Part shown: in pieces, positions 25,810 through 64,000 of the stretch
How positions within the stretch are numbered: the first letter of the stretch is position 1
Layout: each line of letters starts with the position of its first letter
Assembly (NCBI GenBank): GCA_016840085.1
Contig: JAEOTA010000022.1
Coordinates: 75,211-139,210 of the forward strand
Origin: Promethearchaeota archaeon
GTDB taxonomy: Archaea; Asgardarchaeota; Lokiarchaeia; Sigyniarchaeales; SOKP01
Reading direction: 5' to 3'
DNA: 64,000 nt
Notes under the pieces: generated by a model
Database searches by the model: none
Told to the model about the DNA's origin: nothing
The model's input: only the letters and a program-made list of their open reading frames with translations
Made by a program: the position numbers and the translations under genes

Positions 25810-25890
25810 AAAAATTGCTATTAATAATTAATTTTAACTAAATTTATCTTATACTTCTAGATTTAATTTCATTTAGGAAATTTAAAATAA

Positions 25891-25995
25891 CGCAGCTGGA
25901 GGGATTTGAACCCCCGAGCGCTTTCGCGCACCGGCTGTCTTGGTTATTAAAGAAATCACTCGAGGCCGGCGTCTTACCAACTAGGCTACAGCTGC
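25891..25995 (-). tRNA. tRNA-Ser(CGA) with 22-nt intron at 37/38 (25937-25958); CCA not encoded
   Basis: Acceptor GCAGCTG/CAGCTGC, G73, anticodon arm CCGGC-CT-CGA-G/A-GCCGG, long variable arm GCGC-GAAA-GCGC, T loop TTCAAAT. Confidence 0.93.
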
Positions 25996-26100
25996 AATTC
26001 CTTATGAAACTTAAAACATAATAAATATAAATTTCTTACTCTTTCCAACAAGAAAGATTGATTAATAAGAATATTCTTGAATTAGTAATTCAGTAAATAA

Positions 26101-39868: not shown

Positions 39869-41203
39869 ATGGATAAAATTTTTGAAAGCTGTGAACAATA
39901 TTTAGATACTCCAGAGGCAATAGGCTTAGATGGGATTGATTTAGAGAAATACGTTATTGCAAGTTATATAATAAAACGACCAAGAGGTATGAATGTTAAC
40001 TATTTAGCTCGTTTTGCTGCGATTGAACAGTCAACTGGAACTTGGATAAGAGTACCCGCAGAGACTGCTGAAGTAAGAAAACACCATGTAGCACGAGTTC
40101 TAGGTGTCTATGAACTTCCTCATTATGAGTATGTTTTACCCTCTAAAGCTGAAAAACCAGATAGATTATATTTCGTACAGATTGGATTTCCTGTTGTAAA
40201 TATTAAGAATCTAGGCATCCCAATGTTGTTCACTACCGTAATCGGAAATATTTCCATTACACATGGTTTAAAGTTAGTAGATTTAGCATTTCCTAAAGCT
40301 TGGTTAGAAGATTTCAAAGGACCTAAGTTTGGAATAGATGGAATAAGAAAACTCATGAACATTCCTGAAAGACCTCTTTTAAATAATATGGTGAAACCTT
40401 GTACTGGACACACCGCAGATGTCGCAGCAGATTTAGTTTATAAAGCTGCAGTTGGAGGTTGTGATGTGGTAAAGGATGATGAATTGATTTCTAATCCTTC
40501 TTTTAATACTTTAGAAGAAAGAATAGTAAAAGTTATGGAAGCGGTAGACCGCGCTGATTCAGAGAAGGGAGAAAAAACATTATATACCATCAATATAACT
40601 ACTAAATTCCCAGAAATGTTTGATTACGCCGATAAAATGATAGAATTAGGAGCAAATGCGTTAATGATAAATTACTTGGCTACTGGTTATGAGGCATTAA
40701 GACAAATTGCGGAAGATCCTTCAATTAAAGTACCAATTCTTGGACATATGGATTTTGGGGGTGCTTATTTTGGCGGAGAATGGACAGGAATGACAAGTAT
40801 GTTGACATTTGCGAAATTACCAAGAATATGCGGAGCAGATTCGGTAGTAATTCCTGCACCTTATGGAAAAGCTGAGATTTTAGAGGAGAGATATGAACAA
40901 AATCTTAAAGCATTAAGATTTCCATTACAACACATAAAACCTACTCTACCTATGCCATCTGGAGGTATCACTCCAGGAATGGTTGAAAAATGTATAAAAG
41001 AAGCGGGAACAGATATCTTAATCGGAAGTGGTGGGGGAATTCATAGTCATCCTGATGGTCCAATTTCCGGTGCTAAAGCATTCAGACAAGCAATAGATGC
41101 GGTATTGCAAGGAAAGAAAATAAAGGAAGTTGCTAAAGAGAAAAAGGAATTAGGTATAGCTTTAGGAGTATGGGGGACTGGGAAAACAGCCTTAGTTGAA
41201 TAA
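39869..41203 (+). CDS. RuBisCO-like protein (form IV)
   Basis: EQSTGTW, GPKFG, KP-C (K177 replaced), GCDVVKDDE, GH-M (R295 replaced), PSGG, GGGIHSHPDG. Confidence 0.88.
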   Translation: MDKIFESCEQYLDTPEAIGLDGIDLEKYVIASYIIKRPRGMNVNYLARFAAIEQSTGTWIRVPAETAEVRKHHVARVLGVYELPHYEYVLPSKAEKPDRLYFVQIGFPVVNIKNLGIPMLFTTVIGNISITHGLKLVDLAFPKAWLEDFKGPKFGIDGIRKLMNIPERPLLNNMVKPCTGHTADVAADLVYKAAVGGCDVVKDDELISNPSFNTLEERIVKVMEAVDRADSEKGEKTLYTINITTKFPEMFDYADKMIELGANALMINYLATGYEALRQIAEDPSIKVPILGHMDFGGAYFGGEWTGMTSMLTFAKLPRICGADSVVIPAPYGKAEILEERYEQNLKALRFPLQHIKPTLPMPSGGITPGMVEKCIKEAGTDILIGSGGGIHSHPDGPISGAKAFRQAIDAVLQGKKIKEVAKEKKELGIALGVWGTGKTALVE

Positions 41204-60472: not shown

Positions 60473-61963
60473 TTATAATTTTATAATAAGTCCAGTTTTA
60501 CTTTCTAATTTTTTCAATAATGGTGGTAATTGTTCAAATTTGTTGAAATTTAAATCTAAAACTTTTAATGACGATAAGGAAGTAATCGAATAGGGAAGAG
60601 TTTCAAGTTTATTGCCCCATAAGTTTAATTCTTCTAAAGATGATAGTTTTCCTATCCATTCTGGAAGAGAAGTAAAATTGTTCCAACTAAGGTTTAAAGA
60701 TTTTAGTGACTTAAGATGGATAAATGAGGGGGGAAGTCGTCTTAATTGGTTATTTCTTAAATTTAATTTTTGTAAAGTAGTAACCAAACCTAATGATTGA
60801 GGCAATTTTTCAATTCTATTATCATACAATTCTAATTCCTTCAAACAACTTAAAGAATCAATCCACTTTGGAATTTCTTTTAATTTATTTCCGCTTATAC
60901 CTAATTTTTCTAATGATGTAAGAGATTTTATGCTAGGTGGAAACTCTAAAAAGTTATTCCACCCTAATTCTAGTTCTCTAATAAACCTATTAAATTTAAG
61001 ATCAATTGATTTTAATTTATTTCCATGTAAGTCTAAAACCTTAAGCTTTTGGAGAGATTTTAATGATTCAGGAATTTTTGCCAATAAATTGTTTCTTAGA
61101 TTTAGTTTTTCAAGTGAAGATAAATTACCGACCGACTTAGGAAGGGATCTTAATCTATTAGATTTCAAATTTAATATTTTTAAGGATTTTAATTTATCGA
61201 TGGATTCTGAAAGAGTAATTAAATTATTATAACTTAAATCTAAGGATTGGATTGAATCTGATTCATTTGAGATATCTGATAATTTTAACAAATGATTAAA
61301 CCTTAAGTCAAAAAATCTAAGATGTTTAAGGGAGAATATTAAATCAAGCAAATTTGGCAAAGAAATGCCTTGTGGATCTACATTAGACAAATCTAATTTT
61401 GTAATACAACCCCAATCATCTAATTCATATTTTATATAACCATATTTAATTTTTAGAAATGAGATGAGATAATAATTTAATAATATATCTGCAAGTTCCT
61501 GAATATTAATACTTTCTAATTTCTTCTTTTTAAAAATCTCTTTAAAATTATATTTAGATTCTTTTTTGCTAAGCTTTCTTAACTTTTCAACTAAAATTGA
61601 CTTAGATTCATCTATATTTATCTCACTTAAAACAGATACGGCAGTCACCAAACATTTTATAGATTTTTCATGTTCAAGTAGCCAAGATATTGGAGCTAAA
61701 GCTTTATCTAAATAGTGGTTTTTTAAAACTTTACAAGTTAAAATCCTAATTTCTTCATTTAAATCAGAGATTAATAGATGTTCTAAAAATTTGAAATTTA
61801 CATCATCATTAAATGGAATCTTATCTAAAACTCTAATGCTTTCTATTCGAGTTTCAATACTTTCTGTGTGTTCAATTAATGTTTGTAATAACTCAAGAGC
61901 GAAGTATTTATCTAATTCATTATTCATGAAATCTTCATAAATCGCTTTAGGAGTTAAAGGCAT
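60473..61963 (-). CDS. HEAT-like N-domain plus leucine-rich-repeat protein
   Basis: About 12 LRRs; N-terminus homologous to the 41217 and 52488 genes. Confidence 0.9.
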   Translation of the reverse strand: MPLTPKAIYEDFMNNELDKYFALELLQTLIEHTESIETRIESIRVLDKIPFNDDVNFKFLEHLLISDLNEEIRILTCKVLKNHYLDKALAPISWLLEHEKSIKCLVTAVSVLSEINIDESKSILVEKLRKLSKKESKYNFKEIFKKKKLESINIQELADILLNYYLISFLKIKYGYIKYELDDWGCITKLDLSNVDPQGISLPNLLDLIFSLKHLRFFDLRFNHLLKLSDISNESDSIQSLDLSYNNLITLSESIDKLKSLKILNLKSNRLRSLPKSVGNLSSLEKLNLRNNLLAKIPESLKSLQKLKVLDLHGNKLKSIDLKFNRFIRELELGWNNFLEFPPSIKSLTSLEKLGISGNKLKEIPKWIDSLSCLKELELYDNRIEKLPQSLGLVTTLQKLNLRNNQLRRLPPSFIHLKSLKSLNLSWNNFTSLPEWIGKLSSLEELNLWGNKLETLPYSITSLSSLKVLDLNFNKFEQLPPLLKKLESKTGLIIKL

Positions 61964-61988: not shown

Positions 61989-63557
61989 CTAAATTTTCTC
62001 TAGTACCATTCCACCTAATGTTACAGGTCCTCCTGATGCATTATATATCTTTTCTGCTTTTTTTAATTTAGATTGACTATGAGAATAAACTCGAAAAATA
62101 AGATCTCCCTCCTTTAATCTTGCACCTTGTTTTTTTATGATTTCTACACCCGAACTTTTGGAATTAGGACATCCTACTGCTTTTGCAATTTGATTTATTA
62201 TCGAATTTTTTACCTCAACAATATAACCTTCTTTAGTAGCAAAAAATTCTTTTATATGAGGCCCTAACTTAATATCATCTGGTTTAATCTCCGGATTTCC
62301 TCCTTGGATTTTAATAATACTTTTCATTTTTTCATAAGCTTTACCAGTTCTCAATATCTCTTTCGCTAAGTTCTGACCTGATCCTTTTTGAGCTTTACCA
62401 CCCATCTCTAATAGCATGCCTGCTAAATCAGTAGATTTTTCGATTAAGGAATTTGGACCTGCAGAATAATCCATTAGCAATGTTAATGCTTCCTTTGCCT
62501 CGATAGCAGGTCCAATAGCATGACCTATTGGTTGATGAGCTAATGTTAACGCACATTCTGCTTCAATTCCTACATTAGCAGCAATTTCTTTAAATAAATA
62601 AGCAAATTGTTTTCCATTATCTGAAGTAGGAAATTTTGTTCCAGCACCAACAGGTATATCAAGAACTAGTTTTTTCACTCCCAGAGAAAGTTTTTTAGTT
62701 AAAATTGAAGGGATCATAAGACCTACCGGATCCATATGTAAGGGTCGTTCTATTTCAATTAGCACGTTATCTGCAGGTGCTGTTTCAAGAGCTCCACCCC
62801 AAATTATACAAGCTTTTTCTTTATTTACAATATCATTTAATTCTTCTGGAGTAAATGCAACGGGAGCTAAAACTTCCATAGAATCTGCTGTTCCTGACGG
62901 TGAAGTTATTGCTCTAGTAGAAGATTTGGGTATAACTAAACCCGCAGCAGCTACAATTGGGACAATAATCAAGGAGACTTTATTTCCTGGAACGCCACCT
63001 TTTAACAAAATTTACTAGATGTAAATTTTTGTGCTATGTTTATCATAAACATCCATTCCGAAATAAAATATCTCACCACTCCTAGTTTCAGCTAGAGTTA
63101 GAGCTGTCATCTCCTCGTTATCCATTCCGTTGATTGAGACACCTGTAATAAATGCTGCTAGATCTATACGAGATAGAGATCCAGAAACCGCGTCATTAAT
63201 TATACTAGAGATCTCTTCACTAGATAATTTTAGTCCTCTAATTTTTTTTTGTATAAATTTAAATGAATCAGGAGGATCTGCTGGTTTTACAGAAAGCATC
63301 GTATTTTCATTTAAATCCTTTTTCTCTCTTAAAATATCTAAAAATATTCCAATTTCACCAGATTGTACGATAGAATCCGAATAATCAATTTGTATAATTG
63401 CTACCCAATATTTTTCTTCTATAGATTTTGATTTTAAATTTTTAATATATAAGCGTTCTCCCGCTTTTTGTCCTAGTTCCTGAGCATCCTTAATATTTAA
63501 CACAACATCTTTGGTGTTTCCTGTCTCGAAATTAATACTTTTTACTTTAAGCTTCAT
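61989..63557 (-). CDS. deoA: AMP phosphorylase (thymidine phosphorylase family), join(63557..63031,63000..61989), 512 aa after removing the 30-nt insert
   Basis: Both track ORFs are in the same frame; the joined protein reads VYDKHSTGGVPGNK...KSSTRAITSPSGTADSMEVLA. Confidence 0.88.
63001..63030 (-). other. Candidate bulge-helix-bulge mRNA intron (30 nt)
   Basis: UAGC-[AC^A]-AAAAUUUAC-AUCUA-GUAAAUUUU-GUUA-[AA^A]-GGU; contains in-frame UAG UAA. Confidence 0.8.
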
Positions 63558-63678: not shown

Positions 63679-64000
63679 ATGGGAATGAGGCTGACAGAAC
63701 AGATTCAATTAAAGAACACTCCACAATTATCTTATCTATGTCACTTGTCCAAAAATCTCTATAATCTTACCAATTATTATGTAAGACAAGAGTTTTTTTA
63801 TTTAGGAAATTGGTTGAGATATTACGATTTATGGTATATGCTAAAAGAGAAAGAATTGTATAAAAAGCTCCCCTCACAAACTGCTCAACAAACTTTAAAA
63901 CTCGTGGATAAGAATTGGAAATCATTTTTCCAATCTTTTAAAACCTATAAAAAGCATCCAGAGAACTATTTAGGAGCTCCAAAACCGCCACGTTACAAAA
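63679..64000 (+). mobile_element. tnpB: IS200/IS605-family TnpB, 5' part (runs off the window end)
   Basis: Translated by hand: MGMRLTEQIQL...LCHLSKNLYNLTNYYVRQEFF...YKKLPSQTAQQTLKLVDKNWKSFF...PKPPRYK; no tnpA upstream. Confidence 0.88.

What the first reader, a model, noticed from the sequence alone, without database searches (positions are those of the whole stretch)
63001..63030. Candidate tRNA-type (BHB) intron inside the AMP phosphorylase mRNA
Seen: the two half-ORFs are in the same frame, separated by exactly 30 nt carrying tandem stops (UAG UAA), in the middle of the conserved DKHS-T-GG motif. The RNA folds as a 4-bp helix UAGC/GUUA, a 3-nt bulge ACA, a perfect 9-bp stem AAAAUUUAC/GUAAAUUUU with a 5-nt loop, and a second 3-nt bulge AAA. 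Established: the archaeal splicing endonuclease (EndA) cuts after the second nucleotide of each bulge. Applied here (AC^A, AA^A), this removes 63030-63001 and gives AGC-ACA-GGU-GGC = S-T-G-G and an intact 512-aa enzyme. Archaeal mRNA introns are rare, the classic case being crenarchaeal cbf5. Inference: an Asgard metabolic gene depends on EndA/RtcB splicing, possibly as a regulatory switch for nucleotide salvage, and conceptually parallels RtcB-ligated XBP1 splicing. Caveats: the exon-side outer helix is relaxed (A.G, then C-G, A-U), a competing exon hairpin UGUUUA/UAAACA exists, and the A-runs make the junction position somewhat ambiguous.
Basis: partly seen in the sequence, partly recalled or inferred. 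Interest (0 to 1): 0.95.

Follow-up and report, generated by a model that had tools for sequence, protein, structure and literature searches.

The report
tRNA-type mini-intron in AMP phosphorylase gene
The only AMP phosphorylase gene of this Loki-type (Asgard) archaeon is broken inside a conserved active-site motif by a 30-base hairpin shaped like a tRNA intron, and comparison with relatives indicates that the message must be cut and rejoined by the tRNA-splicing enzymes, which the papers I could search report for only two archaeal genes.

Summary
Observation confirmed. A 30-nt insert (63030-63001, minus strand, in-frame UAG UAA) splits the genome's only AMP phosphorylase inside DKHS-T-GG; removal at the EndA cut sites gives 512 aa. 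Relatives in one Promethearchaeota family carry 38 distinct same-site inserts (34 of 30 nt, 2 of 29, 2 of 31). The 4-bp helix is complete in 36 of 38, exon wobble bases covary with insert bases, and both halves have dN/dS 0.03-0.10, as in intronless copies. The 29/31-nt forms exclude readthrough; a restart codon is not conserved. A gene tree implies about 13 precise losses. The motif is relaxed (HBh'), a minor fold in naked RNA, and not enriched genome-wide, so the case rests on comparison. The same genome has such inserts in purA, EF-2 (two) and an acyl-CoA synthetase (checked against relatives). RtcB and the EndA beta subunit are present; the catalytic alpha subunit is missing from this assembly but present in five congeners. 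Splicing was not observed here, and nothing supports a regulatory switch. This scan noted the same intron before in other genomes. Verdict: new variant of the cbf5-type mRNA intron, part of a multi-gene set.

The parts
63031..63557 (-). Exon 1 of AMP phosphorylase (codons 1-175 plus two bases of the Thr codon)
   Evidence: (TIGR03327 1-165)
63001..63030 (-). 30-nt BHB-type (HBh') intron
61989..63000 (-). Exon 2 of AMP phosphorylase (third base of Thr, then GGVPGNK to the stop)
   Evidence: (TIGR03327 167-500)
63033..63036 (-). Exon strand of the 4-bp central helix (UAGC: His wobble base plus Ser codon)
   Evidence: 100% of cells paired in 21 species, 2 of 4 pairs with changes on both sides
63030..63032 (-). 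5' bulge AC^A, predicted 5' cut between 63031 and 63030
   Evidence: cut rule from PMC2738675
63007..63029 (-). Intron hairpin: 9-bp stem and 5-nt loop
   Evidence: 97.4% paired, 5 of 9 pairs with changes on both sides; pairing probability 0.86
63012..63017 (-). In-frame UAG UAA that end translation of the unspliced message
63003..63006 (-). Intron strand of the central helix (GUUA)
63000..63002 (-). 3' bulge or open loop AA^A, predicted 3' cut between 63001 and 63000

Best explanation
The insert is a protein-spliced (EndA/RtcB-type) pre-mRNA intron. Shown: the insert, its site, its conserved stem and exon-intron helix, an intact 512-aa frame after removal, and selection on both halves. Inferred: the transcript folds the 9-bp hairpin; the four intron bases after it pair with the last His base and the Ser codon; the heteromeric (alpha-beta)2 splicing endonuclease binds this relaxed HBh' motif and cuts after the second base of each bulge; RtcB joins the exons, restoring the ACN Thr codon and the DKHSTGG loop. 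Unspliced message yields a 180-aa dead fragment. The intron entered once in an ancestor of this family and has been lost precisely many times. It is most likely a tolerated, near-neutral passenger, one of several such introns in unrelated genes of this genome, not a dedicated switch.
For: 38 distinct same-site inserts, helix complete in 36. In 21 species 98.2% of cells pair, 7 of 13 pairs change on both sides, 0 of 500 shuffles reach this and slid controls pair 31-50% (related sequences inflate this). The His wobble base switches U-A to C-G with the intron base in 6 of 21. Ser is AGY in 31 of 31 intron-bearing genes, TCN in 6 of 23 intronless ones. 29- and 31-nt variants shift the frame, and removal restores it. 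All 31 full-length intron-bearing genes are otherwise open (one needed its start trimmed). dN/dS 0.034-0.099 with intron, 0.034-0.102 without, both exons alike. Single copy; RuBisCO and an R15P-isomerase-like gene are present. RtcB intact. Five congeners have two EndA paralogues, one with the Tyr-His-Lys motif positions; Asgard EndA is reported as (alpha-beta)2 with the L1 loop that allows relaxed motifs (PMC5829648). Same-shaped inserts split conserved motifs of purA, EF-2 (two) and an acyl-CoA synthetase and are absent from some relatives.
Against: No spliced molecule or cleavage was seen here. The catalytic EndA alpha subunit is not in this assembly, although the matchable neighbouring DNA seems missing too. 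The central helix is a minority fold in naked RNA (0.15-0.19 here, mean 0.21 over homologues at 20 C). The second bulge is not closed by an exon helix. The motif is not enriched genome-wide, and one well-scoring motif (CysRS-like gene) proved to be plain coding sequence.
Confidence: 0.88

Rival explanations
1. Same intron, but kept as a regulatory switch that ties nucleotide salvage to EndA/RtcB activity (for example through the competing folds).
For: The helix is marginal against alternative folds. All 34 distinct 30-nt variants keep an in-frame stop, against about 0.53 expected per sequence under a structure-preserving shuffle, although these are few independent lineages. A negative-regulator role was proposed for the cbf5 intron (PMC2738675).
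Against: About 13 independent losses with unchanged dN/dS. Inserts sit in functionally unrelated genes with patchy presence. The competing exon hairpin is not conserved.
Confidence: 0.15
2. No splicing: a split enzyme made as two chains by re-initiation at the UUG in the insert, or a full chain made by stop readthrough or ribosome bypassing over the hairpin.
For: An in-frame UUG follows the stops in this genome, and gene callers annotate a 339-aa ORF from it. The hairpin is the dominant fold.
Against: Only 22 of 34 30-nt variants have a start codon after the last stop. 29- and 31-nt variants change the frame. UAA, UAG and UGA all occur, up to four per insert. The break falls inside a motif that is continuous in the solved homologue 4GA5. 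It does not explain exon-intron covariation in exact EndA spacing.
Confidence: 0.05
3. Pseudogene inactivated by a small insertion.
For: In-frame stops in the only copy; related genomes lack a detected copy in some cases (7 of 54 at genus level, incomplete assemblies).
Against: dN/dS below 0.13 in both exons and no second lesion in 31 genes spanning dS up to 1.0.
Confidence: 0.02
4. The element is excised at the DNA level or by another RNA enzyme, not by EndA.
For: EndA alpha is missing from this assembly; precise intronless alleles exist among close relatives.
Against: G-U pairs are used freely in stem and helix, which points to RNA; spacing matches the EndA rule in five unrelated sites; no skip of 63001-63030 is listed among joints in four DNA runs (contigs show presence only); no second copy or terminal repeat.
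Confidence: 0.04
5. Assembly artefact.
For: Genome is a metagenome bin with 7.6% contamination.
Against: Present in 21 separately assembled congeneric species and in contigs of other studies.
Confidence: 0.01

Closest known systems
cbf5 (pseudouridine synthase) pre-mRNA intron of Desulfurococcales and Sulfolobales (PMC2738675)
   Same: Short (16-44 nt there, 29-31 here) non-coding insert in a conserved active-site motif, relaxed BHB, cut after the second bulge base, host group with heteromeric EndA, single gain with later lineage-specific losses.
   Different: Different phylum (Asgard) and a metabolic gene; many more losses (about 13 against at least 2); one of several intron-bearing genes in the genome; splicing shown by cDNA for cbf5 but not here.
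HVO_1309 transcript of Haloferax volcanii (reviewed in PMC10485636)
   Same: Non-tRNA transcript cut by the archaeal splicing endonuclease and found spliced.
   Different: Homodimeric enzyme, single gene; the review counts only these two archaeal genes.
Non-canonical tRNA introns of Asgard archaea (bioRxiv 10.64898/2026.10.13.758758; PMC11291895)
   Same: Same size range and BHB shape, same predicted enzymes; most tRNA genes detected in this genome also carry introns.
   Different: Those papers treat tRNA only (no mention of mRNA or cbf5 in the preprint), in other Asgard classes. The insert has no close copy elsewhere in this genome (best 24 of 30 in A/T-rich DNA).
XBP1/HAC1 non-spliceosomal intron of eukaryotes (own knowledge)
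   Same: Short mRNA intron removed by a protein nuclease and joined by a tRNA ligase (RtcB in animals).
   Different: Cut by IRE1 at two stem-loops, stress-regulated, frame-switching; no homology or regulation shown here.
Archaeal AMP phosphorylase (TIGR03327; PDB 4GA5/4GA6)
   Same: Spliced product matches the family over its full length.
   Different: Gene interrupted in part of one family; no insert at this site in the other Asgard families searched.

Membership tests
Archaeal EndA-type (BHB) intron | 4-bp central helix between exon and intron | tested here: met
   100% paired in 21 species with two-sided changes; complete in 36 of 38 variants
Archaeal EndA-type (BHB) intron | 3-nt bulge closed by an intron helix (h') | tested here: met
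   9-bp stem, 97.4% paired, 5 pairs with two-sided changes
Archaeal EndA-type (BHB) intron | Removal at the second base of each bulge restores the functional RNA sequence | tested here: met
   DKHSTGGVPG and an open frame for 29-, 30- and 31-nt forms
Canonical hBHBh' motif | Exon-side outer helix closing the second bulge | tested here: not met
   Mismatch then at most two pairs, both fixed by codons; adding them costs 2 kcal/mol. Filed as relaxed HBh'.
Archaeal EndA-type (BHB) intron | Host encodes an EndA able to cut relaxed motifs | tested here: inconclusive
   Only the non-catalytic-type subunit in this assembly; two paralogues in 5 of 5 congeners
Archaeal EndA-type (BHB) intron | Host encodes RtcB | tested here: met
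   Full-length, no stops
Archaeal EndA-type (BHB) intron | Cleavage by EndA and ligation seen in RNA | not testable with these tools
   No RNA data for this stretch were available to lay
Self-splicing group I/II or homing-endonuclease intron | Catalytic RNA core or encoded ORF of hundreds of bases | tested here: not met
   29-31 nt in all 38 variants
AMP phosphorylase (TIGR03327) | Score above the curated cut-off over the full model | tested here: met
   545.8 bits against cut-off 535, positions 1-500, read through the stops
AMP phosphorylase (TIGR03327) | Enzyme activity on AMP | not testable with these tools
   No assay

The most novel reading that the evidence does not exclude
This Asgard family runs routine, genome-wide splicing of protein-coding messages with its tRNA endonuclease and RtcB: many unrelated genes, some essential (EF-2, purA, ubiquitin-system genes), carry about 30-nt introns that are gained and precisely lost at a high rate and keep in-frame stops so that unspliced messages give no full-length product. 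This would be a non-spliceosomal intron system in the archaeal group nearest to eukaryotes.
Probability: 0.7. Interest if true: 0.88.

Novelty: new variant of a known kind. Interest (0 to 1): 0.74.

Why it matters
A 2023 review counts two archaeal genes spliced by the tRNA endonuclease (PMC10485636), and my searches found no report for Asgard protein-coding genes. Here at least five sites in four unrelated genes of one genome pass a comparative test, so mRNA splicing may be ordinary in this lineage. That bears on what RNA processing the archaeal relatives of eukaryotes had, gives a tractable case of intron gain and precise loss in prokaryotes, and corrects annotation: databases list the downstream half as a 339-aa 'hypothetical protein' in many genomes, so metabolic reconstructions miss intact enzymes. 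The prediction is sharp and cheap to test.

Tried and rejected
No RNA holder listed for this stretch; no evidence either way. An exact search for the spliced junction with intron-bearing synonymous bases in JGI contigs found nothing; uninformative. Full-length 512-aa close homologues were traced in the hope of spliced transcripts; they lie on genome or metagenome contigs with flanking genes, so they were treated as intronless alleles (the JGI sample types are not shown). Three de novo BHB scans gave no excess over control bulge sizes and no length peak (one search timed out), so I give no genome-wide intron count. The CysRS-like candidate (C60) was rejected as ordinary coding sequence. Stops in two AMP phosphorylase matches of another Asgard family lay outside the motif; no insert there. 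The sigma-70 promoter scan is not suited to archaea and showed nothing beyond shuffles. No source copy of the insert in the genome. One Pfam call failed on a wrong frame. The register hint from intronless sisters is mixed (one close sister fits the EndA register, others do not) and was not used.

Full report
OBSERVATION. On the minus strand an ORF from 63557 ends after 180 codons at UAG UAA (63017-63012), and the same frame continues to 61989. The halves match AMP phosphorylase TIGR03327 at positions 1-165 and 167-500. Read through, the locus passes the family cut-off and is the only such gene in the genome. The 30 bases 63030-63001 fall inside DKHS-T-GG, which is continuous in the solved homologue 4GA5; that this loop binds phosphate is my own knowledge of the thymidine phosphorylase family. 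Contigs from two other studies bridge the insert without gaps.

IS THE SHAPE MORE THAN CHANCE? On its own, no. The region folds no better than shuffles. In this 29.5% GC genome, motifs with 3-nt bulges that join ORFs are as frequent as those with 2-, 4- or 5-nt bulges. The central helix is a minority state in naked RNA (0.15-0.19 at 37 C), the stem a majority state (0.86). There is no real exon-side helix, so this is the relaxed HBh' form. The case therefore rests on comparison.

RELATIVES. Matching contigs are labelled mostly Promethearchaeota. Among 54 genomes of the genus, 21 species examined carry a 30-nt insert at the same codon and 17 have none. Pattern searches built on the flanks alone added other genera of the family and metagenome contigs: 38 distinct inserts, 34 of 30 nt, 2 of 29, 2 of 31, helix complete in 36. 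Other Asgard families searched show no insert at this site. In the 21-species alignment 98.2% of cells pair and 7 of 13 pairs change on both sides, against 31-50% pairing in slid controls (the sequences are related and the structure came from one of them, so these figures overstate). The most telling pair joins the wobble base of His to an intron base: U-A in 15 species, C-G in 6. Ser is AGY in all 31 full-length intron-bearing genes but TCN in 6 of 23 intronless ones. The third base of Thr comes from exon 2 and varies (A, U, C, G) while always giving Thr.

RIVALS TESTED. Pseudogene: dN/dS is 0.034-0.099 in ten intron-bearing pairs and 0.034-0.102 in eight intronless pairs, alike in both exons, and no second lesion appears. 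Readthrough: the 29- and 31-nt forms shift the frame, and all three stop codons occur. Re-initiation: a start codon follows the last stop in only 22 of 34 variants. All 34 variants of 30 nt keep a stop, where a structure-preserving shuffle expects one about half the time; with few independent lineages this is only a hint.

HISTORY. In a tree of the intron-free coding sequences (60 rows; three partial rows left out; rooted on six genes of a sister family), intron-bearing and intronless genes are interleaved, and AU tests reject either as one clade (p 2.8e-84 and 1.1e-14). One gain at the base of the family with about 13 precise losses fits best, since the inserts are alignable. This is a gene tree with weak deep nodes; allele exchange between congeners could mimic some losses or spread the intron. 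Loss through a spliced copy is inference, as proposed for cbf5 (PMC2738675).

MACHINERY. RtcB is intact. The assembly holds one EndA gene (C79, 202 aa) that lacks the catalytic His by my reading of its motif. Five near-complete congeners hold two paralogues, the second with Tyr, His and Lys at the catalytic positions. That gene is not found in this assembly; a gap is likelier than loss because most detected tRNA genes carry introns, but this is unproven. Asgard EndA is reported as (alpha-beta)2 with the L1 loop, the type that removes relaxed HBh' introns (PMC5829648). RuBisCO and an R15P-isomerase-like gene lie close together on C60, so the pathway that uses this enzyme seems present.

NOT A LONE CASE. 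My scans also ranked inserts in purA, EF-2 (two) and an acyl-CoA synthetase (families); the purA and EF-2 leads had been noted by earlier readers of this genome. Against congeners: purA 16 with and 14 without (30-32 nt); EF-2 first site 4 and 25, second site 14 and 15; acyl-CoA synthetase 1 and 19 (loci are the best-scoring ones, so not unbiased frequencies). Each splits a conserved motif and has the 4+3 spacing. A fifth candidate was plain coding sequence. Two further leads hold at sequence level only: removal of 30 nt restores the C-terminal Gly-Gly of a ubiquitin-like gene and the nucleotide-binding motif of a 482-aa E1-like gene.

MECHANISM. Shown: insert, conserved pairing, restored frame, selection, ligase, EndA pair in the genus. 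Inferred: EndA binds the HBh' motif, cuts after the second base of each bulge, and RtcB joins the exons (0.88). Patchy presence over unrelated genes and repeated loss point to tolerated passengers; a regulatory role is possible but unsupported (0.15).

KNOWN CASES AND NOVELTY. It works like the crenarchaeal cbf5 intron (PMC2738675) and meets every testable feature of an EndA-type intron except the exon-side helix of the canonical motif, which cbf5 also relaxes. A 2023 review counts two archaeal genes spliced this way (PMC10485636). A 2026 preprint on Asgard introns covers tRNA only, and seven searches found no report for Asgard coding genes (the library is incomplete). This scan has noted the same intron in other genomes and similar ones in other genes, one with RNA support that I did not check; these are not independent evidence. 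Verdict: a real, very probably spliced intron; new variant of a known kind; interest 0.74, held back by the lack of RNA evidence for this site.

Noticed in passing
G000 C49, first intron base 147258, minus (L103): 31-nt BHB-shaped insert splits the WGDEGKG motif of purA; present in 16 and absent in 14 congeneric loci.
   Followed up: yes
G000 C4, 16302 and 16173, minus (L104): Two 30-nt BHB-shaped inserts in EF-2, one in the HIDHGKT motif; each patchy among congeners.
   Followed up: yes
G000 C6, 14028, minus (L106): 30-nt BHB-shaped insert in an acyl-CoA synthetase, absent from 19 homologous loci: a candidate recent gain.
   Followed up: yes
G000 C19 about 6047-6018 (L237) and C78 about 56854-56825 (L238), minus: 30-nt inserts whose removal restores the terminal Gly-Gly of a ubiquitin-like gene and the GxGxxG motif of an E1-like gene; not compared with relatives.
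   Followed up: partly
G000 C79:3618-4223; L210-L214: Only the non-catalytic-type EndA subunit is in this assembly; the catalytic subunit of congeners has an extra N-terminal segment that may be the L1 loop.
   Followed up: partly
window 63679-64000, plus: Start of a TnpB-like gene, divergent from AMP phosphorylase and cut by the contig end (below the family cut-off).
   Followed up: no
window 60473-61963, minus: 496-aa protein with HEAT-like N-terminus and leucine-rich repeats directly downstream of AMP phosphorylase; this neighbour recurs in relatives.
   Followed up: no
window about 25890-25996, minus: tRNA-Ser(CGA) with a predicted 22-nt intron; 18 of 24 tRNA genes detected in the genome have intron calls, some doubtful, and the set is incomplete.
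   Followed up: no
window about 40331-41173, plus: Second, weaker RuBisCO large-subunit match, probably a RuBisCO-like protein.
   Followed up: no
P0001-P0200: The downstream half is deposited in many assemblies as a 339-aa hypothetical protein starting at the UUG inside the intron; some 90% clusters mix 339-aa and 512-aa members.
   Followed up: partly
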